A stretch of DNA of 62,751 bases from an uncultured Pseudomonadales bacterium (GTDB taxonomy: Bacteria > Patescibacteriota > Microgenomatia > UBA1400 > UBA1396), in NCBI GenBank assembly GCA_964447905.1, contig CAYUUK010000008.1, positions 1 to 62,751 on the forward strand, given 5' to 3'. The notes beneath the pieces are model-generated. The model worked only from the letters and a program-made list of their open reading frames with translations, ran no database searches and was not told where the DNA came from. Each line of letters starts with the position of its first letter. The first letter of the stretch is position 1. Positions 18,537-47,926 of this stretch are shown one piece after another. The position numbers and the translations under genes are program-made.

Positions 18537-18689
18537 CTTTTTCTTTTATAGTAGACTGGTTGTATGAGAAGAGATTGGAATTCATTTGTAGGCCGCGGTT
18601 TGCTAGAGCGTGGCGAAAGAGACACTCGTAAATCTGCTGATGTTAAAGTAGTGCGTCAACTACTAAAGTAGGCAGAAACTTTAGATTTC

Positions 18690-20204: not shown

Positions 20205-20217
20205 CTGGCAGCAGGGT

Positions 20218-27900: not shown

Positions 27901-30900
27901 TGGTCTGGCTCGTCGAACCAGGTAAAGCCCATGGTCGGACGCGGAAGTCTGAGGTGCTGTCAGGGAATGTCGACCAGGCAGGGGCAACAGTGAGGGAATC
28001 AGTGTTATTTTTGGTGATCAAGCGAGTTTGGCCCGCGCCGGTGCCGCCGGTGATTTCCAAAATCAGACCGCTGTATTTGTTGGATTCCAGGCTGAGAGTG
28101 GTTTTCCCGATGGTGGTGCTGGAGGCAATATCGGCGTCGGAAGCGGAGAAGGAGTCGGTGCCAGAGCCTTGGCGGTATATGGCGGCGATTTGGTTGGGGG
28201 TGAGGTAGTCAAAATGTAAGAACATTTCATCCAAATCACCTTGGAACCAGTTGGTATTGCTCGGGCCGGAGGAACCAAATTGCAAGTTGCCACCGTCAGT
28301 AATGCTGCCGACAGAGAAGGTTTCGCGCAGTTCGCCGTTGATGTAGAGTTCACCCACATTGTTGCGTTCTTGGACCACGACGTGGTGCCAGGCATCGGAG
28401 GTGAGCTGGGTTTCAAATTTCTCAGTTGGACAGCCGCCGCCGTCGGTGCCAGGACACATGCCAAAAATGGGAGAATTGGAGTCGAAGAACCCAAGGTACC
28501 AGCCTTCATAACAGTTGGTGCCGGCACACGTGTTGTAGGTGCCCATAGCATGGCGAGTGCTGGCAGCTCCCGAATTATCTAAATAGACCCAGCCTCCCAC
28601 TGCCCAGTCAGTGTTTCCGAGATTGCCCACCAAGTTGTCGTTGACGGCTACGTAGTCGCCTTGGCTGGAGTCAAAGGACATGGCGCGACCCACAGCACCG
28701 CTGCTGATTGGGGTAGGATTGCCGTCAGCGTCGCCAAGGTTGAGGGTGTAACTGGGGGCACTTTCCAAACCGTAGTCGTTGAGTTTGCCTTCGCTGTCAG
28801 ATGTTTCCATGGGGTAGTAGTGACTGAGACCGAACTGGTTGATCACGTTGTGTGTGGTGTTGATACTGCCGCTCAATCCAACCAGGTTCAAAAAATCGGG
28901 ATCGGGGGTGGTGGCTAAGTTGATAATATCGGTGCCGTAGCGATGCCCGAAGTAGACTTTGCCGCCGTCGACTTCCATGGCGTACTTGGTGTTGTACTCG
29001 GGGATACCGGTGAGGGCGGGGTAGTTTAAGACGTCGGTGCCGTCGTACATGCCAGGGGTGGAGTCGAGAGAAACATCGGCGGTAGCGTCGACTTCTTTGG
29101 ATTTTCCGTAGATATCGTCTGGCTCGACTTCGGAGTTGTCCTGGTTCCAGATGTTGTAGAAGATGTCGACGGTGCCTTTGCTGGCATTGGCGCCTACCAA
29201 AGTGCTGCCGGAGAAGCGCACGTTTTGGTAACGGCCACCGACAAAGGAGAGTTCGTCAATGCGCAGCTGAGTGCCACCATTATTAGCGTCGGCAGTGAAG
29301 CGATAGTATTGGTACTCGTTGCTGTTGCCGAAGTGGATGGACTGGATTTGACCCATGCCGTCGCGCGTGGCCAGTTCGGTCCAGGTGAGGCGGTCGTTAC
29401 TGCCCGAGACGGTGATGTCGCGGGGGCCGGAGACGTCAGAGGCAGTACTAGCCTGCCAGCGCACGCCAGAGACGGTTTGGGCGGAGCCGTAGGGGAAGTG
29501 GCGCTCCACGTAGAAGCCATCACCATTGTTTTCTGCTTGGGAGTTGTAGGCACTGTGGTCACCGCGGTCGATGGTGAAGAATGCTGAGTTAGCAGAGTCG
29601 CCGTTGACGGAGTTGGAGAACATGCGTTCGCTGTCACCGAGGAGCCAGAAGCCTTTGGTCTCGACGTAGGAGTCGCCACCGTTGCGCGAGATATTGAGGC
29701 GGTAGTAGCGGTACGCAGTCGAGTTACTGAAGGTGTATGTAAGGATATCTTCCGTGTCGGAGAAAGGATTACCGGTATCGGCTTTGCTGTGGAGGGAGGT
29801 CCAGTTGCTGCCGTCGTTACTGCCTTCGAGAGCCCAGGCCTCTATTTGGCGGCCACTGGTGACGTATCCTTTTACAGCGTAGCTATTGAATATTCGTGGT
29901 GAGGTGGCGCCGTAGTCGTAGCGGATCCATTCGCTACAGTTGCCGCTACTACAGCTAGAGGTCGAAAGCCAGCGGTAGTTACCGGAGGCTTGGGCATCGT
30001 CAAAAATGACGTTAGTTTCGTCAGCAGTCGTGTCGTTGTTGCTGGAGCTCGCAGTAATTACTGGCGCTCCCATCTGGAACTCGCTGACGTCAAGGAGGGC
30101 GCTGTCGCCGCCGTTTGCCGAAACATCGAGTCGATAGTGCTGATAGGCCGTGCTATTACTGAAGGTGTAAGACTTGTAAACGTATTTGTCAAAAGTCTGG
30201 CTGGAGCGGGTGTCGAGCGAGGTCCAGGTAACGGCGTCGTTACTGCCGTAGAGGGTCCAGTCAGCAGGGTAGGAGTTAGCGTCATTAGAGCGGACGAGGC
30301 CGTACTGGGTCATAACGAGTGGCTCTGGGTAGCTTACTTGCACCCAGCCGTTCGTGTCACCATTGGCGGTGGTGTGGAACTCACCGTTGTTGTTGGTGCG
30401 GCGCCAGTCGTTAATGTGGCGGGTGCTGATGGTGGTGGTATTTCGCGCAGAGCTGGCACGTGGTTTGGCCTTCATGAACTCGCTGCCGTAGAGTTTGACG
30501 GCTGATTTTTCGTGTTTGGTCTGCAGGAACATGTCGGCAATCCAAACTTGGTCGGCACTGGCACTTACTGGGTCCGTGACCACTATGCGGTAGTAGGAGT
30601 AGGCTGTGCCGCTAGAGTTGATTTCACCCCAGCGCACGGTGGGGAGTGCGCCCAAGTCGCGGTATTGGGCGTTGGTTACCGTTTCTAAGGTGGTCCAGGA
30701 GCTGCCGTTGTTGCTGGCTTGGAAGGTCCAGTCCTCTGGAGCTTCATTGTTGGAGGTATTGTCAGAAGGGCGCACTCCGTAGCGTTGAATGGCTTTGGCG
30801 CTGGCGAACTGGTAGGTCACGGTGAGAGTGTTGTTGGCAGCGTCGGAGCGGACGTAGGTGGTTTCATCGAAGTCGAAAGCGTTGACGGCGTCATCGCTGC

Positions 30901-33900
30901 CGGAACTGCCGTCGTCGGTGATGGTGTCACCGGAGTTGAGCGCGCTGGCGGCGTGGCGGTATTCGTACTGGATAGGTTGGTCGAGGTTGACTACATTGAG
31001 ACCACCGTCGGTGGCTACACCGAGGTGGCGTTGGTTGGCGTGATAGGTGATGTCGAGGTCGTTGACTTTGTTGTTGGTGAGGGCAAAGCGGGTGTGGTTG
31101 TTTTCGCTGAAGACGTTGTCGCCGCTGTTGCGCTCTGAAATAGTTTGGGTGCTTTCGGAGCGGTCGGTGGTGTCCCAGTAGGCTACGGTGTCGGTGGTGA
31201 AGTCGAGTTCGTAGATGCCGGTTTCTGAGGAAGTACCGTTGGTTCCTACGTAAATGTGACCGTCACGAGCCGTGACTGAGCTGATGTCGTTGTTACTGGT
31301 GTCGCCGAGGGCATTGCCGCTGCCTTGTTCGAACTTCATCCAGAGCGAGTTGGTCGAGATGTCGAAAATGTAGAGTTCGTCGGCGGTCCAGACGATGTTG
31401 GCCTTGGTGGGGAAGTGGTTGTTGCCGCAGCGGTCGTCAGAGGCGAGCGTACAGCTTTTTCCGATACCGTCGTCTTTTCTTTCACGGTACCAGCTGAGGG
31501 TTTTGGCCACGGAGGATTTGCGCCAGTTGCCACCGTCGGAGTCGCGCGAAGTGTCGTAGAGGTAGGAGCCCAAAATGCTGGTGACGTCGGTGTTGATACG
31601 CGTTTCGTCTGGGGAGAAGATGTCGCCGTAGACCGTGAGCTTGACGTCGTTGTTTGTGCTGCTGCCGAACTCGACGTTTCCTTGCACGTCGACCTTCAAG
31701 AGTTGTTCTCCTTCGTTGGTGAGCTTGAAGACGTCACCACTGTTGGTGGCTTCTACATGGAGTGTGGCCTCGGTGTCGACAATGCCGATGCCCACGTCAT
31801 GACCGTATTGTTGTAAGATGAGCGGTCGGTGGTTACGCAGTTGGATGTCGTAAATGACTGGTGTGTCGGTACGGGTGCTGCCGGTGTCGAGGTAGGCAAG
31901 GACGCGCCAGTAGTAGCGGTCGTTATTCCAGTTGTTCATGGAGCTTCCTGCGGCCGCTACATCGGCAGTGATGTCGAGTTCTTCGCCTGAGTTGATGTCG
32001 TAGGTACCGCCGTCTTGGTAGTAGGTGCCGTCACCATCTGGGAGCGTAACCGGAGCGGCAAACGTGTTGTTGGTGGAAACCTGGATTTGGAATTTCGGAG
32101 CGATGTTGTCTGTGCCATCGAGGTCCCAAGTGGCTTTGAAGCGGTTCGGTTGGCCGAAGCTCAAGTCTTGGGTTTGGTGACCGGTGCCACTCATGATGTA
32201 GTTAGAAGTCCATGAACGCTCGCCAGGCAAGAAGGAAGCTGAACCGATCAGAGAAATATCTTGAACAGTCGGTGTGTCGCTAGTGGTGGCGCCGGTGTTG
32301 AGGATCGCGCGCACGCGCCAGTAGCGATGGGCGGTGTTGACTTGGCCGCTGACATCGAGTTCTACGCCATCATTAATATCGTAGGTACCGCCGTCTTGGT
32401 AGTAGGAGCCGCCGCCATTTGGATAAATGGTCTCTTCACCGGCGAAAGCACCAGTATTAGAGCCCAGAATTTGGAACTGTGGAGCGGTGTTGTCACTGCC
32501 ATCGAGCGTCCAGTTAATAAGGAGGCTGGCTGGAAGGAAGTTACCAACTGCGCCGGCATCGTACGAGGCAGATGTCCAGGTTTCATCGCCAGTAGCGAAG
32601 TCCACGGTTTCCTCGGAGCCTGGGCTAGCCACAGCTGGAGTTGGGTACGTAAATTGACGCATCTGGGCGTAACCGGTCATATTGTGTTCGCCGTCGGTAT
32701 CGATCTGCTGGTAGTAGGCGTAGACGGGTTTGTCACATTCAAGGCGCCAGTTATCGGTAACGTAGCTGGAAGAGTTTCCGGTGCCAAAGCCGAGGTGATT
32801 CACCGTTGTGTTTGATCCACCTGCGATGGTACCGATTGTTGATGCACCTTGGTGCACAGAACAAGTTGTGCTGGCGTATGGTGCGGCCACAGAAATGTAA
32901 TCGGCACCGTTCGGGGCACCCCAGACAGTACTTAGTTCTTTGCGCTCGTAGAACATGGTGGCTTCAATGCCGTCACTGTCACCATGTTGCTGGGCAGAGA
33001 TGGAGGCGTCTGTAGAAATGAGGCGGCTGGCGGGGGCAGCACCAAAATTTCCGCCGGAAGCTAAATCTGAGCTACTGGCAGAGAGGGAGAATGTTCGGTT
33101 GCCCCCAGCACTGTCGACTTCCGTGGTGTTGGAGGTTGAGGCCTCCGGACCAGCGTTGGTGGCCAAAGATTGGGAGCCAATACCGTAGAGGTACTCATTT
33201 TTGACCAGTGGGGTCAATGGCATGATGTCGTGGGCGCCGCCATCGTTGACAGCTAGGATAGGAATGTCGCTGGTTACTCGAATATTTGTATTGTTTGTGC
33301 TTGAAGTGTCGATACAGGTTCCACTTGAGGTCACTGATCCAGCGCGATCAACGGATCCGCCAGCATAAATGGTGTAGTTTGCCGTTCCCCAGGGACTTAC
33401 CATACAGATAGTGTTGATGCCATTATTGCGGTCGTAGAAGGCAAATTCTTTCGAGGCAAAACTGACTGGAACAATCGTATCAGTGAACGATACATCTGCA
33501 TCTGCTTGGAAGAGACCTTTCGCCGATACAGCCGAGCCTTCTGAGAAGAAGCCAGCCGTGAGGGAACCATTGTCGTACTGGTCGAGAGCCACGGTGCCGC
33601 TGCCAATAGTGATCGAGTTTCCATTCATCATGCTGAAAATGTCGATCGTGGATGCGGCCAAGGTGTCGTGGACAACATACCCAATAGTGCGCTCGGAATC
33701 GTAGGAGAAGGTATCAGCCATGCTGGATTCGCTCGTGGCGCTGCTGTTGCCGTAGAACATATAGATCGTTTCACCAGAGCTGGTAAAGGACTCGGTTTGT
33801 ACCCAAACTTCGGTGTCGGCGGTATTACAGGTGTTTTCTACGATGTAGTAGTTGAGTTCGTTGCCGGCGTCGTCACCGAAGCGCATGTCGGAACAGTCGC

Positions 33901-36900
33901 TTTCCATTTTGCTGCCCGAGATGAGCGAGGCGGTGTCGATGTTGTCGAGCAGAACTTGGTATTCTTGCAGGGTTTCGCCGCCAGTGTAGGTGATGTCGAT
34001 GGGTTGGCGGTAGTTCCAGTTGCGGTAGCTCCAATCGGTGTCAGTGGTAGCGAGGGCGAGTTCGTTGTTGGTGGAGGGGTCCTCAATGCCGGATGTTTTG
34101 GTGCCAGTTTCGAAGTCGGCGGTGCTGGTCCAGCTTTGGGTGAGAGAACCAGAGTTACCATAAAGTTTCAGCTCGTCATTGCGCGCCGGATCTTGCAGGC
34201 CAGTTTGGAAGATGGTGCCGCTGGCGTTGAAGTCGTAGGAGGTGGTCCAGATTTTGTTGAGGGAACCGGTGTTTTGCGTGTAGATTTCGCCAGATTGCTC
34301 GCCAATGGAGTAGACCTTGATGTTGTCGGTGGCGTTCACGAGACCACTGAAGCGGGTTTCGTCAAAGTCCTCATCGAGCGTGATGATGACATCACCCTGG
34401 TATTCTTTGTAAATATCACCACCCTGTACGCGCAAGTCAGGCTCTACGTAGAGGTAGTCACCAGTAGAAGTGATCTGCAGATTTGCGTTACCGGTAATTG
34501 GTTCGGTGCCTTCGTAAATACGGTGCTTTTGTTCGCCGAGCCAGATAGATCCATCGGCTTGACTCAATCGGATCTTGGCAGAGTCCGTAGAGTAGCCACC
34601 GATGAGGATGTCAGGAGTAATGTTGCTCGGGCGGATGACGCCATCAGCGGTATCGAGATACCAGATGCTGCCAGAAGAAGAACTCAGGGCTCCCCACTGC
34701 GTGCCGTCAAAAAGGTACATTTGGTTGTCGCTGGTGTTGAAGTAGAGAGAACCGGCGCCGATAGCAGTCGGGTCGGTGCCAAAGTTCCCAATGCGCAGCT
34801 GATCTTGGGTGACGACAGAGCTCGAAAAAGTAGCGGCGCGAGCGGTGATATCGCCAGTGTCAGCGTTGACGTGGAACTTAGCCGAGGCGGTGCTGCCACC
34901 ACCGATAAGGAGATCAGCCTCAAGGTTTCTGGGGTAAATAGTGGTATCAGCTTCGTTAAAGTACCAGTTCGTGGCGCCTTCGCCAGTAAGTTCCAACCAG
35001 TTGGAGCCGTCAAAGTATTTCACTACATTGTTGCTGGAGTCATAGGCCAGAGCACCGGAACCAATGCCTGTGCCTGGGTCACCAGCGTAGTTACCGAGCT
35101 GGAGTTGTTGGGAGAGCGAGATGTCGCCGTCAACATAGAACTCAATATCGGCTGGCAATGTGTCACCGTCACTATCAATGACGATGCCGACTGCCGAAAC
35201 AAACTGGTCTTCTGTCTTTAAGACGTTGGCGGCTGGTCGGAAGAGATTGGTGTCATTTCCCCAGGTAATACCGTTTTCTTGATCGGTGTTTCCCGCATCT
35301 TGGTAGAGTGCCAAACGGGAAGTTGGTGCAGTACTGCTGCCGATGCGGAGGAAGCCTTGCTCATCGAGCAACATAAAGGTGTTGTCGTTATTGCGGAAGT
35401 GGATATCGCCACCGTTGGGGGTGTTGAGGTAGGTGTCGGAGCCGTTTCCTGCCAAGGAGTAGTTTCCGCTTGTCAGGGTGCTGGCAAACCCGATGCGGCC
35501 GATAGCAGAGTTGCTGCCCGCGTCACCCATCAGGATTTGGGCTCCGCCTGATCCGTCAACTACATGGAACTTAGCACCTGGTGCTGCCGTGCCCACACCA
35601 ATAAAGGTATTGCTGGTGTCGAAGCTCAAGAGATCTGAACCGAAGTTGAGCGCATCCACACCACTCGTGAGGGAAACATCCACGCTCTGAGTAGAGAGGT
35701 CAATAAGAGGGCTGTCAATGTCGATGGCAGTGCTGCCAACTAATTGAATTGTCGGTTCGGTGAGTGCGAGCGTGTTGTCAACGGTGTTGTCGATAGTAGC
35801 GCCGTAAGCCAGTGTGAGCAGGCCATTTGCACCTACGGTGAATCGGGTCGTGCCAGAAGATGAGGCCGTTAAAATGTCATTTCCAAAGGTGTCATTCAGC
35901 GTGACTAAAGCATTGCCGCCAAAGCCGCCTTCTACATTCAAGAGTGACGCCGGCGAGGTAGTACCGATACCCACGTTCCCGTTTTCATCAATGACCATAC
36001 GACCATTGAGAATATCGAGGCTGGTAAAGCCAGAAGCAGCCAGTAAGAGGTCCTCATCACTGCCGCCGGTAGAACCAAAGAGGTACTCAGAGGCACTCAA
36101 GCGGTACGCGGTGCTGCCGGAAATGGTGCCGGCCACCGAAAGCTCGTAGTTTGGTGCGGCGGTGCCGATGCCGACTCGACCGTTGCTCGTGTCGAGGCTC
36201 ATGAGGTCGGAACCAAAATTCAAGGCGTCAATGCTGGTGGCTAGGGAAACATCTACGTTTTGCGTGGAAAGGTCGAGAGTGGCGGAGTCAATGTCGAAGG
36301 CAGTTGAAGCGGTGAGTTGTAAGGTATCTGTGGTTTGGTTGTTGAGAACTACACCGTTGGCGAGAGTGACGTCGCCAGTAACGGCGTTGACGTGGAACTT
36401 GGCTGAAGCGGTGGACGAGCCGCCAACAGCAATGGACTCATAGGATTGGTTGGGCGAGAGCAGGCCGTTGCTGTTACGACTCCAGTACGAGTCACCACCA
36501 CCGCCACCACTGCCAATGTTGTTGTAGAGGTAGTTGAGCGCGTCGATGATGCCTCGGTCAGCGGCGTCAAACAGGTCGAGGTTCGTGTCGGTCAGGGAAA
36601 GCGGAATGGCGTAATCGACATTGCCGTCTTGCAGGCTCAAAGTGCCGGCGGAGTTGAGAGCGATGTTGCCAGATGTGGTGGTGGTAATGTCGAGGTTGCC
36701 GCCGGCGCGCGTGAGGGTTCCTCCAGAGAGGTTCAGTGTTCCGGCAATATCGCTGGTACCGACTCCGTTAATGTCGAGTACCCCGGCGCCGGTAATGTTG
36801 TTCAAGTTTCCATTTCCAGAGGCGTCAACGTAGTAGGTAGTTCCACCGCCCACACTAATACCATTGCTGAACTGCACGTAGTTGGCCAATCCCGTAAGCG

Positions 36901-39900
36901 TGTTGCTGTTCGGAAGGGTGAGGGTGCCGTAGGTGGTGATATTCTGGGAGCCGTCAAAGGTAATTGCCACACCTGTGCTGTCGTAGATGTCGTTCCCCAA
37001 GACTTGCAGATCATCATCAATGGAAAGTGTGCCGTCGCTCAGATCAGCCAAGGAGCCCTCAATGAACAAATTTCCTGTTCCATCCAGGTTGGCAACAGTA
37101 GTTCCAGAGGCGGAAGCTGTGAGTATATTTTGTGTTCCTCTTTCATCTATGACCAGGGCGGCGTTGCCAGCACCACCGCGAATGTTCACCATGCCGCCAG
37201 CGGCAGAGGTTTGGCCAATGGTGACTCTGTCTGGAATAATGAAGTCGTCGCCAGTAATGTCGAGGAAGAGGTCGGTGGAGAAGTTGGAGAAGGTGGCAAA
37301 GCCAGCGCCGCCGTCTCTGAGGGCGATGTCGGCGCCGTCGGCGTCGAGAATGATGTCACCGCTGCTGTCGATGGTGGCATTTCCTGTGGAGTTGAGTGTG
37401 AGCGTGCCTGTTGGGGTAATGCGCAAGTTACCATCTGATGTGATGTCGTCACCATTTACCGCGATGTCACCGCTAGTGGCGAGGTTTCCAGTGATATTTA
37501 CCTGACCACTCAAGAGCTCAATCAAGTCAGCATCGCTCGTGGAACCAACATATTGATTTACCGCTAAGTTTCCGGTGCTCGAGATGTAGGCAATGTCTGA
37601 TCCGCCCGAGTTACGCCAGCTGGAAAGATAGGCACTTTGCCCAGATACACCGCGGATTATCTGGCCGATTTCGGTATCAACCGTGGTGCGAACTTCGAGT
37701 TGTCCCCCTGGAGCTGTGGTGCCCATGCCAATGCCGATGTTTCCGCCTGAGGTAATTGCCAAAGCCGTACCAGAGCCGAACGTGCCGTTGTTTACATTGA
37801 GTTGAATACCGTTACCGGTGCCAGCTTGCAAAACGGCGAAGGCATTGTCGTATCCAACAAATCCTCGGTCGCCGGCAAAGGTAGTGTAGACGCTTGCGTC
37901 AGTGCCATCACCAACACTGATAGCGCCACCGTTGCCGCCTACGTCGAGTAAGGCGCCCGGGTTGGCGCTGCCGATTCCGAGATTACCGCTTTCGTCAATG
38001 ACTACCAGATCATTTCCAGAGGAATCCTGCCAGGAAGAGAGGTTAGCAGTTTGTCCGGCTGAACCTTGAACAGTCAGGGCTGAGCGGTGGGCGAGTTGAG
38101 ATGACAGCGTGGCACCGCGTGCCTGTAAGTAGCCGGCATCTTCCCCAATTCCAAAAATCTGAGCAACGGCAGAGCTGGTGGCGGTGCCACCAATGGCGAG
38201 ATCAAACGCAGAGTTCGCAGGAGAAAGGACATTTTGGTTTTCTTGCCAGAGCTGTATGGCTGGAGTGACCTCTTGGCCATTTACAAATAACTGTCCGCCG
38301 ACTTCGAGGATGTCTTCAATGTAGAGGTCATTGTCGGTGCTCGCCTGGGAAGCCGTGCCACCATCAGAAATTGCGTTGTAGGTTTGCGGAGAAATACCGC
38401 CAATTGCCAGGATGGTTGCCTGGAGGTTGTTGGTCACGGTGAGGTTGTCACCAATGGTGAAGCTGTCGTCGGTGGCCAGCGTGTCGGCAGCAGAACGGTA
38501 GATGTTGGTGTCGCCGCCAATGACAATACCGCCGCTTGAGCCTTGAGTGTCCAGGCTCAGTTGGCCGTTGTTATTGACTGTGAGGATTTGTCCGCCGGTG
38601 CCGTTGATTACCAGTGGGTTACTGCCTGCGTAGGTCGCGCTCAGCGTAGCGCCCGGAGCAGCTAGGTAGCCGTCAATTGTTGTGTTTCCCAAGGCATCGA
38701 CCACAAATTTCTCATCGAGCGAAGAGCCGCCAGCCAAAGAAATGAGGTTGTGGGTCGTGTTGTCGTTGCCGACTTCGCCGCGGATCAGGTTGCCGCTGGT
38801 GAGGTTGGAGTTAGAGATGTAGAGAGAGTCATTGGTGCTGGTAGAAGAGAGGACTTGTACTGAACCCTCACCATCTGGTTGGAAAGAAATGTCACCGTCA
38901 CTACCGGTCTCTGTTTGGAAGAGGAGCGATTCGCCTTGAATTAAAAACGCACCAGATGAAGCAATCAAGCTCGGGTTGTCGGCACCAATGATTATCTCGC
39001 CGAGTGCGTTAATAACCGGAATAGAGTTGATACCTCCATCCAGATCTACTGGGAATCCCTGCACGGTTTCCGAGTTTAAGGCGTACGGTACAGAGGCAAT
39101 TCGCTGACGAGGTGAGAGAATCTCACTCGAGACCTGAACTTCGAGCCAGACCTCGGTATTTTCGCTAAAGACGTTTTCAGTAATCTCATCTCCACAGCCA
39201 TCCACTGATTCACCCAGAAGAATAGAGAAGATACCGTCCTGATCAGGGTCAATAGAACAGGCGCCTGCGTCTGAAGAGTCCCAGAGTACGTTTCCACTTG
39301 TTTCGGCGTCGTAGAGGCGGAAGGTGAAGTTAATGGGGGTAGTAATTGGCGTCCGGCCTGAGTCAGTCAAGCGACCCTGGAAGTTGAGGATTCTCCCTGG
39401 TCGACTCGCTTCGCTCGGGTAGGCGAACTGTTGATCAACATTCACATAGAACTGTTGGTACCCAAACAGTCCAATCATCACCGAGAAGACAACCAAGATA
39501 CCTAAATGCAGGTAGCTAGAGATTTTCCAGGAGTGGTACTGGTCATACCAGCCAAGTAAGCTTCTCTGCACAGTGAGCGCACCAGCTGTCTGAGCAACCT
39601 GCTCTGATTTTCCACCAGATACAGACGAAGGCAGGTTGCCTGTTTTTCGTTTTTCAAACAGTGCTAACGGGGTGAAGGCATCGATAACCGCTTGTTTCTG
39701 TTTATCGAACCAAGTTTGGTAAGGATTCTCGGATATAAACTCCTCTTTGGCCGCCCATTGGCAGAAGCGCTTCAGACTGGCTTCTTTTCGTTGCACAGTA
39801 CTGCGCGTAAGGCCTTTGTTGCGGCGTTCGTTAGTCAGGTACTCGGCAATTTTGGGTTTTCGGCATATTTCGTCAAATGACTGCGCTGGATAGGCATCAC

Positions 39901-40354
39901 CGAAAAGTTTTGTGTCGGTAACATAATTTTTGACTGTGGTTTCCTTGCACCCGCTACTGCGGAGTGCTAATCCAAAGCGTTGCACAATCTTGCTCTTGGC
40001 AAGTTCGTGTTTTTGCGGGGAAAAACTAGTTTCGGGATGGATGAGAGTGGGCCAAGAAGGGTGTTTGTAGGCCAAAAAGTCATTAAAACGGCGCAATGAC
40101 GCAAAGTGTCGTTTGATGGTGCTCTCTGGTGAGCCCATGTTTTCCAGATGTGAGCGATAGCTTGCTAGAGCACGCCACTCAGTCGTCTCGGCAGAGGAAG
40201 CGGAAAAATGCTCGTGTGCCCACTCGGACCAGCGGTGCACATCGGAAACGTAGTTCTTAATCGTTTTTTTGGAAAGATTTTGATTGCCAAGCCACTGCCG
40301 AAATTCTTTCAGCGATTCTGCAAAGCTGTGCAGTGATGTTTTTGGGTTTGGCAT
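24935..40354 (-). CDS. Giant (5,139 aa) membrane-anchored, fibre/adhesin-like surface protein
   Basis: Uninterrupted 15,420-nt ORF with a GAGGA ribosome-binding site ~13 nt upstream. The architecture is a cytoplasmic N-terminal region, one TM helix and then ~4,800 aa of repeat-rich Gly/Ser/Thr/Asn/Asp-rich sequence with recognisable carbohydrate-binding-type modules (sub-features below). Confidence 0.9.
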   Translation of the reverse strand: MPNPKTSLHSFAESLKEFRQWLGNQNLSKKTIKNYVSDVHRWSEWAHEHFSASSAETTEWRALASYRSHLENMGSPESTIKRHFASLRRFNDFLAYKHPSWPTLIHPETSFSPQKHELAKSKIVQRFGLALRSSGCKETTVKNYVTDTKLFGDAYPAQSFDEICRKPKIAEYLTNERRNKGLTRSTVQRKEASLKRFCQWAAKEEFISENPYQTWFDKQKQAVIDAFTPLALFEKRKTGNLPSSVSGGKSEQVAQTAGALTVQRSLLGWYDQYHSWKISSYLHLGILVVFSVMIGLFGYQQFYVNVDQQFAYPSEASRPGRILNFQGRLTDSGRTPITTPINFTFRLYDAETSGNVLWDSSDAGACSIDPDQDGIFSILLGESVDGCGDEITENVFSENTEVWLEVQVSSEILSPRQRIASVPYALNSETVQGFPVDLDGGINSIPVINALGEIIIGADNPSLIASSGAFLIQGESLLFQTETGSDGDISFQPDGEGSVQVLSSTSTNDSLYISNSNLTSGNLIRGEVGNDNTTHNLISLAGGSSLDEKFVVDALGNTTIDGYLAAPGATLSATYAGSNPLVINGTGGQILTVNNNGQLSLDTQGSSGGIVIGGDTNIYRSAADTLATDDSFTIGDNLTVTNNLQATILAIGGISPQTYNAISDGGTASQASTDNDLYIEDILEVGGQLFVNGQEVTPAIQLWQENQNVLSPANSAFDLAIGGTATSSAVAQIFGIGEDAGYLQARGATLSSQLAHRSALTVQGSAGQTANLSSWQDSSGNDLVVIDESGNLGIGSANPGALLDVGGNGGAISVGDGTDASVYTTFAGDRGFVGYDNAFAVLQAGTGNGIQLNVNNGTFGSGTALAITSGGNIGIGMGTTAPGGQLEVRTTVDTEIGQIIRGVSGQSAYLSSWRNSGGSDIAYISSTGNLAVNQYVGSTSDADLIELLSGQVNITGNLATSGDIAVNGDDITSDGNLRITPTGTLTLNSTGNATIDSSGDIILDADGADIALRDGGAGFATFSNFSTDLFLDITGDDFIIPDRVTIGQTSAAGGMVNIRGGAGNAALVIDERGTQNILTASASGTTVANLDGTGNLFIEGSLADLSDGTLSIDDDLQVLGNDIYDSTGVAITFDGSQNITTYGTLTLPNSNTLTGLANYVQFSNGISVGGGTTYYVDASGNGNLNNITGAGVLDINGVGTSDIAGTLNLSGGTLTRAGGNLDITTTTSGNIALNSAGTLSLQDGNVDYAIPLSLTDTNLDLFDAADRGIIDALNYLYNNIGSGGGGGDSYWSRNSNGLLSPNQSYESIAVGGSSTASAKFHVNAVTGDVTLANGVVLNNQTTDTLQLTASTAFDIDSATLDLSTQNVDVSLATSIDALNFGSDLMSLDTSNGRVGIGTAAPNYELSVAGTISGSTAYRLSASEYLFGSTGGSDEDLLLAASGFTSLDILNGRMVIDENGNVGIGTTSPASLLNVEGGFGGNALVTLNDTFGNDILTASSSGTTRFTVGANGLLTLAYGATIDNTVDNTLALTEPTIQLVGSTAIDIDSPLIDLSTQSVDVSLTSGVDALNFGSDLLSFDTSNTFIGVGTAAPGAKFHVVDGSGGAQILMGDAGSNSAIGRIGFASTLTSGNYSLAGNGSDTYLNTPNGGDIHFRNNDNTFMLLDEQGFLRIGSSTAPTSRLALYQDAGNTDQENGITWGNDTNLFRPAANVLKTEDQFVSAVGIVIDSDGDTLPADIEFYVDGDISLSQQLQLGNYAGDPGTGIGSGALAYDSSNNVVKYFDGSNWLELTGEGATNWYFNEADTTIYPRNLEADLLIGGGSTASAKFHVNADTGDITARAATFSSSVVTQDQLRIGNFGTDPTAIGAGSLYFNTSDNQMYLFDGTQWGALSSSSGSIWYLDTADGVIRPSNITPDILIGGYSTDSAKIRLSQADGSIWLGEQKHRIYEGTEPITGNANLQITSTGDYLYVEPDLRVQGGDIYKEYQGDVIITLDEDFDETRFSGLVNATDNIKVYSIGEQSGEIYTQNTGSLNKIWTTSYDFNASGTIFQTGLQDPARNDELKLYGNSGSLTQSWTSTADFETGTKTSGIEDPSTNNELALATTDTDWSYRNWNYRQPIDITYTGGETLQEYQVLLDNIDTASLISGSKMESDCSDMRFGDDAGNELNYYIVENTCNTADTEVWVQTESFTSSGETIYMFYGNSSATSESSMADTFSYDSERTIGYVVHDTLAASTIDIFSMMNGNSITIGSGTVALDQYDNGSLTAGFFSEGSAVSAKGLFQADADVSFTDTIVPVSFASKEFAFYDRNNGINTICMVSPWGTANYTIYAGGSVDRAGSVTSSGTCIDTSSTNNTNIRVTSDIPILAVNDGGAHDIMPLTPLVKNEYLYGIGSQSLATNAGPEASTSNTTEVDSAGGNRTFSLSASSSDLASGGNFGAAPASRLISTDASISAQQHGDSDGIEATMFYERKELSTVWGAPNGADYISVAAPYASTTCSVHQGASTIGTIAGGSNTTVNHLGFGTGNSSSYVTDNWRLECDKPVYAYYQQIDTDGEHNMTGYAQMRQFTYPTPAVASPGSEETVDFATGDETWTSASYDAGAVGNFLPASLLINWTLDGSDNTAPQFQILGSNTGAFAGEETIYPNGGGSYYQDGGTYDINDGVELDVSGQVNTAHRYWRVRAILNTGATTSDTPTVQDISLIGSASFLPGERSWTSNYIMSGTGHQTQDLSFGQPNRFKATWDLDGTDNIAPKFQIQVSTNNTFAAPVTLPDGDGTYYQDGGTYDINSGEELDITADVAAAGSSMNNWNNDRYYWRVLAYLDTGSTRTDTPVIYDIQLRNHRPLILQQYGHDVGIGIVDTEATLHVEATNSGDVFKLTNEGEQLLKVDVQGNVEFGSSTNNDVKLTVYGDIFSPDETRINTDVTSILGSYLYDTSRDSDGGNWRKSSVAKTLSWYRERKDDGIGKSCTLASDDRCGNNHFPTKANIVWTADELYIFDISTNSLWMKFEQGSGNALGDTSNNDISSVTARDGHIYVGTNGTSSETGIYELDFTTDTVAYWDTTDRSESTQTISERNSGDNVFSENNHTRFALTNNKVNDLDITYHANQRHLGVATDGGLNVVNLDQPIQYEYRHAASALNSGDTITDDGSSGSDDAVNAFDFDETTYVRSDAANNTLTVTYQFASAKAIQRYGVRPSDNTSNNEAPEDWTFQASNNGSSWTTLETVTNAQYRDLGALPTVRWGEINSSGTAYSYYRIVVTDPVSASADQVWIADMFLQTKHEKSAVKLYGSEFMKAKPRASSARNTTTISTRHINDWRRTNNNGEFHTTANGDTNGWVQVSYPEPLVMTQYGLVRSNDANSYPADWTLYGSNDAVTWTSLDTRSSQTFDKYVYKSYTFSNSTAYQHYRLDVSANGGDSALLDVSEFQMGAPVITASSSNNDTTADETNVIFDDAQASGNYRWLSTSSCSSGNCSEWIRYDYGATSPRIFNSYAVKGYVTSGRQIEAWALEGSNDGSNWTSLHSKADTGNPFSDTEDILTYTFSNSTAYRYYRLNISRNGGDSYVETKGFWLLGDSERMFSNSVNGDSANSAFFTIDRGDHSAYNSQAENNGDGFYVERHFPYGSAQTVSGVRWQASTASDVSGPRDITVSGSNDRLTWTELATRDGMGQIQSIHFGNSNEYQYYRFTADANNGGTQLRIDELSFVGGRYQNVRFSGSTLVGANASKGTVDIFYNIWNQDNSEVEPDDIYGKSKEVDATADVSLDSTPGMYDGTDVLNYPALTGIPEYNTKYAMEVDGGKVYFGHRYGTDIINLATTPDPDFLNLVGLSGSINTTHNVINQFGLSHYYPMETSDSEGKLNDYGLESAPSYTLNLGDADGNPTPISSGAVGRAMSFDSSQGDYVAVNDNLVGNLGNTDWAVGGWVYLDNSGAASTRHAMGTYNTCAGTNCYEGWYLGFFDSNSPIFGMCPGTDGGGCPTEKFETQLTSDAWHHVVVQERNNVGELYINGELRETFSVGSITDGGNLQFGSSGPSNTNWFQGDLDEMFLHFDYLTPNQIAAIYRQGSGTDSFSASDADIASSTTIGKTTLSLESNKYSGLILEITGGTGAGQTRLITKNNTDSLTVAPAWSTFPDSTSDFRVRPWALPGSTSQTKALRIEANDIFVGLNDGSNGGGVVRLDAQSAYVTDYYHASAGKTDDAGTAWDSTSGYDNVVGIETTQDNLLITSSTLYWREKIGDTLFEAVDKLQQAIGGTIFSNYTQDDNGTDSQDTTAQVIRKGWSWLESNDTSKEVHYGISYNTPPLVFLSVAGSLNSTLRNPTTLSQCTDLSGSNDLYASSIRENKFTAVESIANTVTCFTWMSIGSYNQALPEGNFSGGADLAEWYGTDDTSLQAGEIVSVDPSGDIKVVRSDRPQDSKAIGIIATQPAITLGDASGLTPGYDSDPQLTRGAATAVQVALAGRVPVKVSLENGPIEPGDYLTTGSTPGVAVKAISAGPTIGKAMERFDGTSTIIGLADANVDLSGDITALTASGSAAVDVNSDNATASGILSELEKNAYAELDNGIGTIMAFVNTSYFDPSYDSTTQTASAGDGTFAIDGSGKLIGLGAYSFDIVDVLRDSGTANWNVALGQFGDIPTATQSASPSALLAQRESVMDAALARLKTLGTLALRELNVANARVMDTLFARNIETDNLAATVTRTNMITPLENADVIVEIGQEGASESGQFAIFNQAGEQLATIDNSGLRTKQAVITDLENRFLTVQELLSVTGNASISGNLTAQSARFEQLASNDASISGTLYANRIEGTISSDSISGLEDRVRTIVSREREAVATSSAEVSVPENDELKSLIASLLEETATTQPSSNDDFGTIVTTPAPATGSTAWNIAMDVNIDGIITAQGLSLNSALLVNGTSLSGTELAFSSETFAIQSTGTGRLSLMADAVVISENGGVVINEDVIINGRTTLAGETIAEQSLFASLLQPLPNNNLEVQLASSNSLNTSLTDSGEAQSEITPSEFVLRGIDNQEIAAFSASGSSRFRRLIIAAEEATSTDEEISTSVVTNSTTGTGTIAAGQTKFVVRNTVISNDSLIYLTPTSSTKNRVLYIGSKSGENPDTDENEGYFEVVLDGEVDQDVSFNWWIIN
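26840..27240 (-). other. Giant protein: GADLAEWY...GRVPVKV...GDYL segment resembling tail-fibre/neck-appendage autoproteolytic (Peptidase_G2/IMC-like) domains
   Basis: GADLAEWYGTDDTSLQAGEIVSV...SKAIGIIATQPAITLGD...VALAGRVPVKVSLENGPIEPGDYLTTGSTPGVAVKA. The assignment is from memory of this motif in phage-fibre-like proteins and has not been searched. Confidence 0.35.
28170..28690 (-). other. Giant protein: LamG / concanavalin-A-like lectin module
   Basis: MSFDSSQGDYVAV...DWAVGGWVYLD...WHHVVVQERNNVGELYINGEL...QFGSS...WFQGDLDEMFLHFDYLTPNQI is the typical LamG pattern (F-D-G...D-F-T-x-x-x-W-V...W-H-H-V-A...L-Y-V-D-G...F-x-G-x-I-D-E-V-R-I-Y). Confidence 0.6.
29240..30890 (-). other. Giant protein: four tandem discoidin (F5/8 type C)-like modules
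   Basis: Four ~130-aa units each contain a Y-G/A-(V/L) motif, then (D/E)W-(T/A)-(F/L)-x-(A/G)SN(D/N)G..(W/T)W(T)-x-L, and end with ..Y-x-(Y/H)YR(I/L/F)... Examples are PEDWTFQASNNGSSWTTL, PADWTLYGSNDAVTWTSL, IEAWALEGSNDGSNWTSL and RDITVSGSNDRLTWTEL. Confidence 0.6.
31835..32585 (-). other. Giant protein: two tandem ~125-aa repeats
   Basis: The first unit reads WTSASYDAG...INWTLDGSDNTAPQFQILGSN...YYQDGGTYDINDGVELD...YWRVRAILNTGATTSDTPTVQDISL. The second reads WTSNYIMSG...ATWDLDGTDNIAPKFQIQVST...YYQDGGTYDINSGEELD...YWRVLAYLDTGSTRTDTPVIYDIQL. Confidence 0.8.
33730..34020 (-). other. Giant protein: DUF2341-like module
   Basis: WNYRQPIDITYTGGETLQEYQVLL...CSDMRFGDDAGNELNYYIVE...TEVWVQT...GETIYMFYGN matches my recollection of the DUF2341 pattern (W-x-Y-R-x-P-I...D-I-R-F...Y-Y-I-E...W-V-K...I-Y-M-Y-Y-G-N). 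Confidence 0.55.
39455..39525 (-). other. Giant protein aa ~278-300: single transmembrane helix
   Basis: ISSYLHLGILVVFSVMIGLFGY is the only strongly hydrophobic segment in the protein. Confidence 0.7.
39719..40327 (-). other. Giant protein aa ~10-212: two tandem phage-integrase SAM-like (core-binding) domain look-alikes
   Basis: SLKEFRQWLGNQNLSKKTIKNYVSDVHRWSEWA...FASLRRFNDFL, then a second copy RFGLALRSSGCKETTVKNYVTDTKLF...EASLKRFCQWA. This follows the F-x2-(W/Y)L...S-x2-T-x3-Y pattern of XerC/D N-terminal domains. No catalytic R-K-H-R-H-Y domain follows. Confidence 0.5.
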
Positions 40355-43283: not shown

Positions 43284-43358
43284 GGCAGGCTCACCAAAAG
43301 TATAGCACGCACTTTTCTTGCTCCAAGCCCTGGTAGTGCATGCTACAATTGCGCTATC

Positions 43359-45923: not shown

Positions 45924-45992
45924 CAATTCATAATTTGCCAACTGTTTGCGTCTTGTGTAATTCCTGTGCGAATTGCGGTGTTTACTGCAAAC

Positions 45993-46655: not shown

Positions 46656-46941
46656 TATATTAATATTAACGCACAATATAAGTTTAAGTATATTATTAAC
46701 GCAAATTAGTAATAATTTGAAAAGAAATCAAAACGGGCAGGTGAGGGAGCATCGTGATTGTTTCTTGGCTTTGTAGGAATGGTGGGTTGGCGGAGCGTAT
46801 GTGACTCCAAATTTCTTACCAGTCTAAATAGCCTGGAGAGCGAGACCAAGTTCATTGGAAAATGAATAAAAACACGATAATAACCCAAAAACAAAAGAAC
46901 AAAATAAGGTAAGTGATACGTAAGAAAAAAATAAGAAAAGA

Positions 46942-47898: not shown

Positions 47899-47926
47899 AA
47901 TTTGTGAAAGTTGTGAAAAGAGAACT

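What the first reader, a model, noticed from the sequence alone, without database searches (positions are those of the whole stretch)
39455..40354. Cytoplasmic head of the giant protein looks like two integrase SAM-like core-binding domains without a recombinase domain
Residues ~10-97 and ~122-212 each follow the XerC/XerD/phage-integrase N-terminal pattern:
- first copy: ..EFRQWLGNQNLSKKTIKNYVSDVHRWSEWA....FASLRRFNDFL
- second copy: ..RFGLALRSSGCKETTVKNYVTDTKLF....RKEASLKRFCQWA

Instead of a catalytic tyrosine-recombinase domain, a linker follows, then the only TM helix and the extracellular fibre. A DNA-binding-type four-helix module fused to the inside end of a surface fibre is unusual.

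Inference: possible roles are tethering or sensing nucleic acid at the membrane, acting as a release-activated regulator, or serving as a protein-protein docking module.
Basis: partly seen in the sequence, partly recalled or inferred. Interest (0 to 1): 0.7.

Follow-up and report, generated by a model that had tools for sequence, protein, structure and literature searches.

The report
Integrase DNA-binding domains anchoring giant fibre
A 5,139-residue surface fibre of an ultra-small (CPR/Microgenomates) bacterium starts with two copies of the DNA-gripping domain of tyrosine recombinases but has no recombinase enzyme, and this cytoplasmic head turns out to be the standard, so far undescribed, inner anchor of well over a hundred such giant fibres.

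Summary
The minus-strand ORF 24935-40354 (5,139 aa) begins with two tandem core-binding (SAM-like) domains: aa 11-101 and aa 120-212. Pfam Phage_int_SAM_1 scores E=3e-16 and Phage_int_SAM_4 scores E=2e-13, both above threshold. A single TM helix follows (aa 278-300), then an acidic fibre of about 4,800 aa. No recombinase catalytic domain is present in the protein, in the window, or in 151 relatives.

It is not a one-off. An exhaustive search found 589 related cluster representatives. Of the 102 long proteins among the best 150, 97 share the layout CB-CB, TM, huge ectodomain, and none has a CB domain beyond the TM. Heads are net basic in 97% and ectodomains net acidic in 99%, which fits a cytoplasmic head. 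The TM and the first ectodomain are also conserved. That first ectodomain is homologous to the N-terminal domain of Bdellovibrio MAT trimeric fibres.

The relatives carrying organism names are Microgenomates. Databases label some of these giants "XerD". I found no paper describing the architecture.

The function is inferred only. I favour a non-catalytic DNA-binding platform linking the fibre anchor to the nucleoid, with a ToxR/CadC-like topology. A protein-docking role is a serious rival.

The parts
24935..40354 (-). Giant gene, 5,139 aa: cytoplasmic head, single TM helix, ~4,800-aa acidic extracellular fibre.
   Evidence: ORF list and translation. Start codon supported by the ortholog P0006, which begins MPQSKTPLH at the same position. 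Composition and charge.
40052..40324 (-). CB1: first core-binding (SAM-like) four-helix domain, aa 11-101. Signature T-I-K-N-Y-V-S-D (helix B) and T-I-K-R-H-F-A-S-L-R-R-F (helix D).
   Evidence: Pfam PF02899 E=3.2e-16. Family CB HMM E=8e-28. pLDDT 90-97 in the helices.
39998..40051 (-). Flexible inter-domain linker, aa 102-119.
   Evidence: Low pLDDT in the models: about 42-43 for aa 101-120 in the single-sequence model and 60-72 with the alignment. 17-33% identity to relatives.
39719..39997 (-). CB2: second core-binding domain, aa 120-212. Signature T-V-K-N-Y-V-T-D and T-V-Q-R-K-E-A-S-L-K-R-F.
   Evidence: Pfam PF13495 E=2.1e-13. Family CB HMM E=1e-24. BLASTP CB1 vs CB2 E=5e-7.
39524..39718 (-). 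Cytoplasmic linker, aa 213-277, with two family-conserved short motifs: F-x-P-L-A-x-F-E-K-R (aa 227-236) and W-Y-x-x-Y-H (aa 269-274) just before the membrane.
   Evidence: Invariant or conserved columns in A1, A2 and a 97-member alignment. Otherwise low pLDDT.
39455..39523 (-). The only TM helix, aa 278-300 (ISSYLHLGILVVFSVMIGLFGYQ). Its polar and Gly positions (Y281, H283, G295, Y299) are conserved across the family.
   Evidence: Kyte-Doolittle 2.02, next best 1.39. 57-91% identity to relatives, higher than the CB domains.
39035..39400 (-). Fibre base, aa ~319-440 (P-x-R-x-L-N/S-F-Q-G-R-L-T-D ... P-R-Q-x-I-A-S-V-x-Y-A-L-N-S-E-T). A beta-rich domain homologous to the N-terminal domain of Bdellovibrio MAT trimeric fibres.
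   Evidence: NCBIfam Bdello_MAT_N E=1.9e-6 for the window, and 17/17 family members match (best E=9e-11), all below the curated cut-off. The most conserved part of the protein: 57-96% identity, dN/dS 0.024.
33704..33898 (-). DUF2341 domain (aa ~2153-2217) in the fibre.
   Evidence: Pfam PF10102 E=7e-13. This domain is noted in Patescibacteria giant proteins (PMC11809585).
29669..30058 (-). Best of three F5/8 type C (discoidin) carbohydrate-binding-type domains (aa ~3433-3562).
   Evidence: Pfam PF00754 E=4.5e-16, 3 stretches; PF22633 E=1.2e-15.
28184..28663 (-). Laminin_G_3 / concanavalin-like lectin domain (aa ~3898-4057).
   Evidence: Pfam PF13385 E=1.4e-15.

Best explanation
SHOWN (confidence ~0.9):
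- The first 277 residues are two tandem core-binding (CB, 'SAM-like') domains of the tyrosine-recombinase type, with no catalytic partner domain.
- They are joined through conserved juxtamembrane motifs and one conserved TM helix to a MAT-like surface fibre.
- This CB-CB-TM-base unit is a lineage-wide N-terminal cassette. Fibres of very different length (up to 6,346 aa among the relatives listed) and domain content are built on it.

INFERRED topology (~0.85): head in the cytoplasm, fibre outside.

INFERRED mechanism (~0.4): the head is a non-catalytic DNA-binding platform.
- Helices B and D of each CB domain carry conserved polar and basic residues (T-x-K-N-Y-x-S-D and T-x-x-R-K/R-x-S-S-L-R-R-F). 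They keep the same net positive charge as the CB domains of genuine recombinases from the same lineage, so they should lie in the DNA major groove as in Xer, Cre and IntI.
- If the fibre is a trimer, as its MAT-type base and the S74 chaperone domain in a relative suggest, six CB domains sit together under the membrane. They could then hold chromosomal DNA at the fibre's anchor point.
- This gives the same bitopic logic as ToxR/CadC-type transmembrane regulators: DNA-binding domain inside, one TM helix, sensor or adhesin outside.
- The recognition-face residues are nearly identical in both copies and across divergent family members. I therefore expect generic or common-motif DNA binding, meaning a fibre-to-nucleoid tether or contact signal, rather than a set of gene-specific regulators.

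Whether the output is signalling, positioning or mechanical anchoring is not resolved.
For: Domain identity:
- Pfam, NCBIfam and PDB profile hits.
- AF2 model and Foldseek hits to IntI, XerA, Cre and Tn1549 Int CB domains.

No catalytic domain:
- Whole protein scanned with Pfam.
- A catalytic-domain HMM built from lineage recombinases finds nothing in 151 family proteins or in the window ORFs, while its positive controls score E=1e-71 to 1e-106.

Family and topology:
- 589 cluster representatives at E<=1e-3; the best 150 have no recombinase among them.
- Of 102 long proteins, 87 have two CB domains, 97 have a TM within 400 aa after the last CB, and none has a CB domain C-terminal of the TM.
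- Heads are net positive in 97% and ectodomains net negative in 99%.

DNA-binding plausibility:
- Head CB domains have median net charge +4 and 93% are positive. True recombinase CB domains of the same lineage are +1 to +6, mostly +3 to +4.
- Conserved basic columns lie in helices B and D.
- The closest true recombinase (P0215) carries the same TVKNYLSD / NRRIQSLRRF motifs.

Selection: dN/dS for CB1 is 0.13 and for CB2 0.11.

Trimer inference:
- Bdello_MAT_N match in 17/17 members.
- Peptidase_S74 trimerisation chaperone in member P0017.
- MAT biology from PMC10769870.

The chromosomal context is housekeeping. It is not a mobile element and has no recombinase nearby.
Against: - No DNA-binding assay or DNA-complex model was possible. 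The conserved signature residues are also the fold-defining residues of CB domains, so their conservation does not by itself prove DNA binding.
- The head evolves faster than the TM, the base and even the fibre. Against the closest ortholog, CB1 is 64% and CB2 75% identical while the base is 96% and the fibre 85-90%. dN/dS is 0.19 for the head, 0.024 for the TM plus base, and 0.06-0.075 for the fibre. That is not what one expects of a generic DNA clamp and would fit a co-evolving protein partner.
- No candidate binding sites stood out in the upstream intergenic region.
- Foldseek E-values are not significant on their own.
- A positive charge next to a membrane can have other causes.
- In one related clade the head is encoded in two pieces split inside CB2. 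That shows the module also works as a protein-protein assembly.
Confidence: 0.4

Rival explanations
1. Protein-docking or assembly module. The CB fold has been re-used as a cytoplasmic platform that binds a conserved protein rather than DNA. Candidate partners are a secretion or assembly factor for the enormous ectodomain, a type IV pilus or competence component, a cytoskeletal or polar landmark, or neighbouring subunits.
For: - The head evolves faster than the rest of the cassette, as co-evolving interfaces often do.
- There are conserved short linear motifs (PLAxFE and WYxxYH) and a conserved polar TM helix, typical of interaction sites.
- In a related clade CB2 is split between two polypeptides, so the half-domains must associate as proteins.
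- Pilin, ComEA and ComEC genes lie nearby, and the LeuRS-ComEA-ComEC flank is syntenic in the one relative where it was seen (L001).
Against: - No partner was identified.
- The basic charge is at recombinase level, and helix-B/D basic residues are conserved.
- Every characterised relative of the domain binds DNA.
- The synteny may only reflect relatedness of the genomes.
Confidence: 0.3
2. Release-activated regulator. The head is a latent soluble DNA-binding factor held at the membrane. When the fibre engages a host cell it is freed by intramembrane or juxtamembrane proteolysis, as with anti-sigma factors and membrane-bound transcription factors. In the split-gene clade it would be freed by dissociation.
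For: - The topology matches RseA/RsgI-type and ToxR-type proteins.
- The TM has conserved Gly and polar residues, and there is a conserved juxtamembrane motif that could be a cleavage or recognition site.
- The split clade makes a free 158-172-aa CB1 plus half-CB2 protein.
Against: - No site-2 protease or other processing enzyme was found next to the gene in the window or in the related loci.
- Near-invariant recognition residues across hundreds of fibres argue against target-specific regulators.
- There is no evidence of cleavage.
Confidence: 0.12
3. RNA- or ribosome-directed module. The head is the first part to emerge from the ribosome. It would bind RNA or the translation and targeting machinery to keep synthesis of the 15.4-kb message coupled to the membrane translocon.
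For: - The head is basic.
- SAM-type folds can bind RNA (general knowledge, not tested here).
- The position at the extreme N-terminus of a very long co-translationally exported chain is suggestive.
Against: - There is no precedent for CB domains binding RNA.
- The one apparent precedent is PDB 9i5v 'RaiA', which has an N-terminal CB domain. It is a 400-aa Porphyromonas protein of which only 34 residues (RaiA part) were modelled on the ribosome, so it says nothing about the CB part.
Confidence: 0.08
4. Evolutionary relic or artefact. The head would be a decayed integrase gene fragment fused by chance or by misassembly to the fibre gene, with no function of its own.
For: - Databases name some such giants 'site-specific recombinase XerD'.
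- The head is the least conserved folded part.
Against: - The same architecture appears in about 100 of the 150 best cluster representatives, on independent contigs up to 1 Mb.
- dN/dS is 0.11-0.19, meaning purifying selection.
- The fold is predicted at high confidence.
- The orthologous locus L001 is syntenic and has the same start.
Confidence: 0.03

Closest known systems
Core-binding (N-terminal SAM-like) domain of tyrosine recombinases (XerC/XerD/XerA, integron integrase IntI, Cre, lambda and Tn1549 integrases; Pfam PF02899, PF13495, PF13102)
   Same: Homologous domain. It scores above the Pfam thresholds and has a four-helix bundle. It keeps the canonical helix-B (T-x-x-N/A-Y-x-x-D) and helix-D (R-x-x-S-x-x-R-x-F) signatures and a similar net positive charge. 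The nearest true recombinases (P0215-P0217) share the same KNYxSD / SLRRF motifs.
   Different: It is duplicated in tandem. No catalytic domain is present in cis, in the window or in any family member. It is tethered to the membrane and followed by ~4,800 extracellular residues. It therefore cannot recombine DNA by itself.
ToxR / CadC / TcpP-type transmembrane transcription regulators (bitopic one-component systems; survey in PMC10269533)
   Same: Same layout: an N-terminal cytoplasmic DNA-binding-type domain, a single TM helix and a C-terminal extracytoplasmic domain.
   Different: The DNA-binding fold is CB/SAM-like, not winged-helix or HTH. 'Integrase', 'recombinase' and 'Phage_int' do not occur in the main text of that survey (supplementary tables not checked). 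The outer part is a giant adhesin-like fibre rather than a small sensor domain. No regulatory target is known.
Bdellovibrio bacteriovorus MAT (mosaic adhesive trimer) fibres (PMC10769870; NCBIfam NF053851)
   Same: A beta-rich cell-proximal N-terminal domain directly after the membrane-targeting segment. Fibre bodies and tips are variable and mosaic. A family member carries the S74 trimerisation chaperone.
   Different: MATs start with a cleavable signal peptide and are ~1,000 aa long. Here a signal-anchor TM is preceded by a 277-aa cytoplasmic head, and the fibre is five times longer. The match is below NCBIfam's curated cut-off.
Giant (>4,000 aa) Patescibacteria surface proteins with DUF2341 / FhaB domains (PMC11809585)
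   Same: Same phylum-level group, same size class, DUF2341 present, and a presumed role in adhesion or host interaction.
   Different: The word 'integrase' does not occur in that paper's main text. No N-terminal head or shared anchor cassette appeared in the passages I retrieved, which reported no full-length homologues.
RsgI / RseA-type membrane anti-sigma factors
   Same: A small N-terminal cytoplasmic domain, one TM helix and an extracellular sensing domain, with signalling by regulated proteolysis. This comparison rests on general knowledge.
   Different: The cytoplasmic domain there binds a sigma factor and is unrelated in fold. No sigma factor or protease gene accompanies this gene.

Membership tests
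Tyrosine recombinase / phage integrase (XerC/XerD type) | N-terminal core-binding (SAM-like) domain | tested here: met
   PF02899 E=3.2e-16 and PF13495 E=2.1e-13, both above gathering scores. The family profile hits PDB XerA, XerD, 3nrw and 2key. Foldseek hits IntI, XerA and Cre CB domains at probability 0.9-1.0.
Tyrosine recombinase / phage integrase (XerC/XerD type) | C-terminal catalytic domain (PF00589) with the R-K-H-R-H/W pentad and the tyrosine nucleophile | tested here: not met
   No PF00589 hit in a Pfam scan of all 5,139 aa. NCBIfam XerC and XerD models match only profile positions ~2-90 of ~290-295 and score 58-59 bits against cut-offs of 330-335. A lineage catalytic-domain HMM gives no hit at E<=1 in the giant, in 150 relatives or in the window ORFs.
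Tyrosine recombinase / phage integrase (XerC/XerD type) | Soluble protein of ~300-400 aa acting on paired DNA core sites | tested here: not met
   5,139 aa with a TM helix at aa 278-300. No dif- or att-like repeats were detected upstream.
Pfam Phage_int_SAM domain families (PF02899 / PF13495) | Score above the curated gathering threshold; four-helix bundle | tested here: met
   59.8 bits vs 22.3 and 50.9 bits vs 27. Two helical bundles: four main helices in the first, four plus a short extra turn in the second, with pLDDT 90-97 in the helices.
Transmembrane transcription regulators (ToxR/CadC-like) | Topology: cytoplasmic DNA-binding domain, single TM helix, extracytoplasmic domain | tested here: met
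   One TM helix. No signal peptide. Head net +14 and ectodomain net -363. In the family, 97% of heads are positive and 99% of ectodomains negative. Topology is inferred, not measured.
Transmembrane transcription regulators (ToxR/CadC-like) | Recognised transcription-factor DNA-binding domain (OmpR-type winged helix or HTH) | tested here: not met
   Only Phage_int_SAM families are significant in aa 1-437. HTH_48 scores E=0.039, below its cut-off.
Transmembrane transcription regulators (ToxR/CadC-like) | Demonstrated DNA binding and control of target promoters | not testable with these tools
   Needs EMSA, DAP-seq or genetics. The organism is uncultured.
Bdellovibrio MAT fibre family (NF053851) | Conserved ~130-aa beta-rich N-terminal domain | tested here: inconclusive
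   The window scores E=1.9e-6 and 27.8 bits against a cut-off of 60. All 17 family members tested match, best E=9.3e-11. This shows homology of the domain, not family membership.
Bdellovibrio MAT fibre family (NF053851) | Cleavable signal peptide; trimeric fibre with an S74 or other tip domain | tested here: not met
   There is no N-terminal signal peptide; a signal-anchor lies at aa 278-300. No Peptidase_S74 is found in the window protein, although relative P0017 has one.
Patescibacteria giant DUF2341-containing surface proteins | >4,000 aa, DUF2341 and/or FhaB domains, Patescibacteria genome | tested here: met
   5,139 aa with DUF2341 at E=7e-13. Relatives occur in Woesebacteria, Levybacteria and Microgenomates records. 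Description in PMC11809585.

The most novel reading that the evidence does not exclude
Giant host-contact fibres of Microgenomates (CPR) bacteria are wired directly to the chromosome. A trimeric fibre would present six catalytically orphan recombinase core-binding domains under the membrane, and these would bind DNA. Engagement or tension on the fibre outside the cell would then be transmitted to the nucleoid by a single polypeptide, as gene regulation, locus positioning or transertion, or mechanical anchoring. This would be a new class of transmembrane DNA-binding receptor built on a recombinase domain. In one clade it would exist as a two-piece, split-domain version that could release its DNA-binding half.
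Probability: 0.3. Interest if true: 0.8.

Novelty: new variant of a known kind. Interest (0 to 1): 0.6.

Why it matters
CPR/Patescibacteria are a large, mostly uncultured part of bacterial diversity, and they live attached to other cells. Their giant surface proteins are the prime candidates for host contact, yet nothing is known about how these proteins are anchored or whether they signal.

This analysis gives three usable results:
- Many of these fibres share one conserved inner module: CB-CB, TM, MAT-like base. That gives a handle to find, classify and correctly annotate them, since several are currently labelled 'XerD'.
- A recombinase DNA-binding domain has been detached from catalysis and moved to the membrane, which is a new evolutionary use of that fold.
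- The hypothesis is directly testable. The ~215-aa head is predicted to fold on its own and can be expressed and tested for DNA binding without culturing the organism.

If the head binds DNA, it would be a one-protein link between the cell surface and the nucleoid in some of the smallest known cells.

Tried and rejected
1. The word-indexed homologue search with the head alone gave only five weak short hits and wrongly suggested an orphan. The exhaustive HMMER search showed a large family. Both later word-indexed searches were biased towards short proteins and fragments.
2. PDB 9i5v chain '14' ('RaiA', 401 aa) was the best PDB sequence hit. I considered it as a precedent for a CB domain on the ribosome. 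The paper (PMC12123416) shows that only 34 residues (RaiA part) were modelled, so I rejected it as uninformative.
3. I looked for binding-site-like repeats, promoters and dif-like sites in the 374-nt upstream intergenic region. Only short two-copy repeats at chance level were found, and no promoter-like site.
4. The search for related loci with the 17-sequence alignment failed because there was no conserved stretch to search with. A 4-sequence alignment worked. It used the only genome-contig scan, so the number of paralogues per genome could not be counted.
5. In one subfamily a second hydrophobic segment lies between CB2 and the TM. As a true TM it would flip the topology. I judged it a re-entrant or interfacial segment, for two reasons. 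It has a central Asp and Pro, and the loop that follows contains many Lys and Arg residues (by inspection), which suggests a cytoplasmic location. The window protein lacks this segment.
6. TFIIB and cyclin-repeat hits in Foldseek have probability 0.1-0.25 and were rejected.
7. Nine literature searches found no description of a membrane-anchored, catalytic-domain-less CB head. They covered CPR giant proteins, Phage_int_SAM with Patescibacteria, core-binding domain with transmembrane, DUF2341, transmembrane regulators, MAT fibres and 9I5V. Absence from this library is not proof of absence.
8. The divergent upstream gene (40729-41526) has only a sub-threshold PaaX_M hit (E=0.0085). It is conserved next to the giant gene in the closest relative (60% identity) but not in more distant loci. 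I did not use it as evidence.
Full report
**What is there**

The finding's coordinates (39455-40354) are the first 300 codons of a minus-strand ORF, 24935-40354, which encodes 5,139 aa. The quoted motifs are present.

Pfam places Phage_int_SAM_1 at E=3.2e-16 (two stretches, best aa 23-95). It places Phage_int_SAM_4 at E=2.1e-13 (best aa 124-205). Both are far above their gathering scores. NCBIfam XerD, XerC and XerA models match only with their N-terminal ~80-90 positions and fall far below their full-length cut-offs.

The two copies resemble each other (29% identity, E=5e-7). A single-domain HMM built from family members finds exactly two copies: aa 11-101 (E=8e-28) and aa 120-212 (E=1e-24). 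It finds nothing else among the 567 six-frame ORFs of the window.

AlphaFold2 predicts two helical bundles joined by a flexible linker: four main helices in the first, and four plus a short extra turn in the second. Mean pLDDT is 70 for aa 1-309 without an alignment and 85 for aa 1-215 with 68 sequences. Foldseek against the PDB puts the CB domains of IntI, XerA, Cre, Tn1549 Int, lambda Int and Brujita Int at the top with probability 0.9-1.0. For such short domains the E-values are only 0.06-2. A family profile also hits PDB XerA, XerD and two stand-alone integrase N-domains by sequence.

**What is absent**

No Phage_integrase catalytic domain occurs anywhere in the 5,139 residues. I built a catalytic-domain HMM from genuine recombinases of the same lineage. 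It scores those recombinases at E=1e-71 to 1e-106. It finds nothing at E<=1 in the giant, in 150 relatives or in any ORF of the window.

The neighbourhood is ordinary chromosome, not a mobile element:
- 23S and 5S rRNA, S1, RadA, Rho, an M23 peptidase and Obg
- three type IV pilin-like genes and a TPR membrane protein
- LeuRS, ComEA, ComEC, an M16 peptidase and NDK

**Topology**

There is one TM-grade segment, aa 278-300 (Kyte-Doolittle 2.02; next best 1.39). There is no N-terminal signal sequence. The head has net charge +14, and the 4,837 residues after the TM have net charge -363. The distal part carries DUF2341, three discoidin domains and a LamG-type lectin domain. All of this places the head inside and the fibre outside. 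This is an inference, because no dedicated topology predictor was available.

**It is a family, not a curiosity**

The word-indexed search suggested an orphan. The exhaustive HMMER search found 589 cluster representatives at E<=1e-3 and 67 at E<=1e-10. The best hits are proteins of 1,700-6,346 aa that match over the whole head plus TM.

Among the window protein and the 150 listed, 102 are at least 600 aa long. Of these:
- 87 have two CB domains, 14 have one and one has three.
- 97 have a TM helix within 400 residues after the last CB domain.
- None has a CB domain on the far side of the TM.
- Heads are net positive in 97%, and ectodomains net negative in 99%.

The conserved unit extends beyond the CB domains. 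It includes an F-x-P-L-A-x-F-E motif, a P-x-W-Y-x-x-Y-H motif at the membrane, a TM helix with conserved Y, H, G and Y positions, and then a domain starting L-S-F-Q-G-R-L-T-D. That last domain matches NCBIfam Bdello_MAT_N in 17 of 17 members tested (best E=9e-11, below the curated cut-off). In Bdellovibrio, this ~130-aa beta-rich domain follows the signal peptide of 21 trimeric 'mosaic adhesive trimer' fibres. It is thought to sit next to the cell surface (PMC10769870). One family member (P0017, 4,633 aa) also carries the Peptidase_S74 trimerisation chaperone. The fibres are therefore probably trimers, which would put six CB domains at each anchor.

Beyond this cassette the fibres are mosaic. 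Only the N-terminal ~560-890 residues and the C-terminal ~400-500 residues align well with relatives P0007 and P0008.

**Taxonomy**

Relatives with organism names are Candidatus Woesebacteria, Levybacteria or Levyibacteriota, Woykebacteria and 'Microgenomates group'. Three GTDB records are titled 'uncultured Pseudomonadales', which I did not verify. The closest ortholog is P0006, with 68% identity over the 315-aa head-plus-TM query and 85% overall. It lies in a syntenic locus: ComEC, ComEA, LeuRS, small genes, then the giant.

**Constraint on the head**

In comparisons with five relatives, the TM (57-91% identity) and the base (57-96%) are the most conserved parts. The CB domains are less conserved (28-75%) and the linkers least (17-55%).

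| Region | dN/dS against the closest ortholog |
|---|---|
| CB1 | 0.13 |
| CB2 | 0.11 |
| Whole head | 0.19 |
| TM plus base | 0.024 |
| Fibre | 0.06-0.075 |

dS is near saturation, so these ratios are rough. The head is clearly maintained by selection, but it is the fastest-evolving folded part.

The helix-B and helix-D signatures are nearly invariant across the family and between the two copies. These are T-x-K-N-Y-x-S-D and T-x-x-R-K/R-x-S-S-L-R-R-F. The conserved basic columns lie in these helices. Head CB domains have the same net charge (median +4) as the CB domains of true recombinases of the lineage (+1 to +6). The nearest true recombinase, P0215, carries the same motifs.

From my memory of Cre-loxP and Xer-dif structures (not tested here), helices B and D are the ones that enter the major groove. 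The conserved K, N, S and R positions align with known DNA-contact positions.

**Mechanism**

I commit to a non-catalytic DNA-binding platform. The head keeps what a CB domain needs to sit on DNA. It cannot cut or join DNA. It is held at the inner face of the membrane at the foot of a probably trimeric fibre. This is the ToxR/CadC logic (PMC10269533) with a different DNA-binding fold and a giant adhesin in place of a sensor domain.

Because the recognition faces hardly vary, I expect generic or common-motif binding, meaning a fibre-to-nucleoid link. I do not expect a repertoire of specific regulators. I put this at about 0.4.

The main rival, at about 0.3, is a protein-docking or assembly role. 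It is favoured by three things: the faster evolution of the head, the conserved linear motifs and TM helix, and the split-domain clade. A release-activated regulator (0.12), an RNA- or ribosome-directed role (0.08) and a functionless relic (0.03) follow.

**Comparison and novelty**

The domain is a member of the Phage_int_SAM families. The protein is not a tyrosine recombinase, because the defining catalytic domain was tested for and is absent. Its outer part belongs with Patescibacteria giant DUF2341 proteins (PMC11809585), and its base is homologous to the MAT N-domain.

None of the papers I could search describes the head or the shared cassette. The term 'integrase' is absent from the main text of both the transmembrane-regulator survey and the Patescibacterium paper. 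IMG calls some of these 3,600-4,600-aa proteins 'site-specific recombinase XerD', which is an annotation error.

I rate it a new variant of a known kind: a known domain and a known class of giant adhesin in an undescribed, lineage-wide combination with an open function.

Noticed in passing
L007 8001-8700; L011 3001-3800; L012/L013 3001-4700 (related loci, not the window): In one Microgenomates clade the head is encoded in two pieces. A 157-173-aa ORF holds CB1 plus helices A-B of CB2; the members inspected end at the same point (...RHFLxWLExx*). A variable spacer follows: 105 nt in L007, 190 nt in L011 and ~1 kb in L012. The giant ORF then starts with helices C-D of CB2, followed by the TM and the LSFQGRLTD base. 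About 40 clusters of this length class exist, annotated 'site-specific integrase' or 'XerD'. In L007 the two ORFs are in the same frame with a single TAA stop and no other stop in the spacer. In L011 and L012 they are not in frame.
   Followed up: partly
L012 ~5800-6519 (giant gene of a related locus): The giant fibre gene of this relative contains an intein. There is a Pfam Intein_splicing hit, and the sequence reads ...SKLHVEGQ|CVTGDTLLPIV.... An ORF resembling a 23S rRNA-intervening-sequence protein may lie inside it; this is by eye only and was not searched.
   Followed up: no
Proteins P0017 (4,633 aa) and P0022 (3,620 aa): JGI/IMG names these giant membrane fibres 'site-specific recombinase XerD', evidently from the N-terminal CB head alone. 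This is a systematic mis-annotation that will inflate recombinase counts in CPR genomes.
   Followed up: partly
window 39035-39400 (aa ~319-440) and proteins P0231-P0319: The fibre-base domain (LSFQGRLTD...PRQxIAxVxYAxNSE) is widespread outside the CPR. It occurs in 260-330-aa proteins of Omnitrophota, Yanofskybacteria and others, some with a phage tail Collar (PF07484) or collagen repeats. Only a few of those hits carry the CB head. The base therefore looks like the older, broadly distributed part, and the head like a lineage-specific addition.
   Followed up: partly
window 19563-21299 (+), 45966-48790 (+): Three consecutive type IV pilin-like genes (N_methyl motif) lie 3.6 kb downstream of the giant gene's 3' end. 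ComEA and ComEC (the latter split into a Competence ORF and a following ORF that is Lactamase_B in the syntenic locus L001) lie 5.6 kb upstream of its start. The LeuRS-ComEA-ComEC flank is conserved in L001, and LeuRS is also upstream of the giant in L007.
   Followed up: partly
window 41807-42577 (-) and 40729-41526 (+): A 256-aa secreted protein with no Pfam family is conserved between LeuRS and the giant gene, even in the distant locus L007 (32% identity, E=9e-31). The divergent 265-aa gene next to the giant's start is conserved only in the closest relative (60% identity). It has a sub-threshold PaaX_M hit.
   Followed up: partly
window 4135-7387 (+): 23S and 5S rRNA genes are present, with protein-coding ORFs rather than a 16S gene in the 4 kb upstream. 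The rRNA genes therefore look unlinked, which I recall as common in CPR genomes. Two tRNA-Ala genes (GGC and CGC) lie 150 nt apart at 18246-18537.
   Followed up: no
Family subfamily, e.g. P0061 aa 235-275, P0150 aa 245-280: Some relatives have an extra ~20-residue hydrophobic segment with central Asp and Pro (F-x-D-x-L-x-I-x-P) after an F-P-P-L-R-L-x-Q-K motif. A loop containing many Lys and Arg residues follows before the real TM. It is probably a re-entrant or interfacial membrane segment. The window protein lacks it.
   Followed up: partly
window 42582-44015 (-): This listed 477-aa ORF overlaps LeuRS (43359-45923) on the opposite strand in its first half. Only its C-terminal ~230 aa look like a real multi-TM protein with a coiled-coil tail, so the true start is probably an internal Met. 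A 233-aa gene sits at the equivalent place in L001.
   Followed up: no
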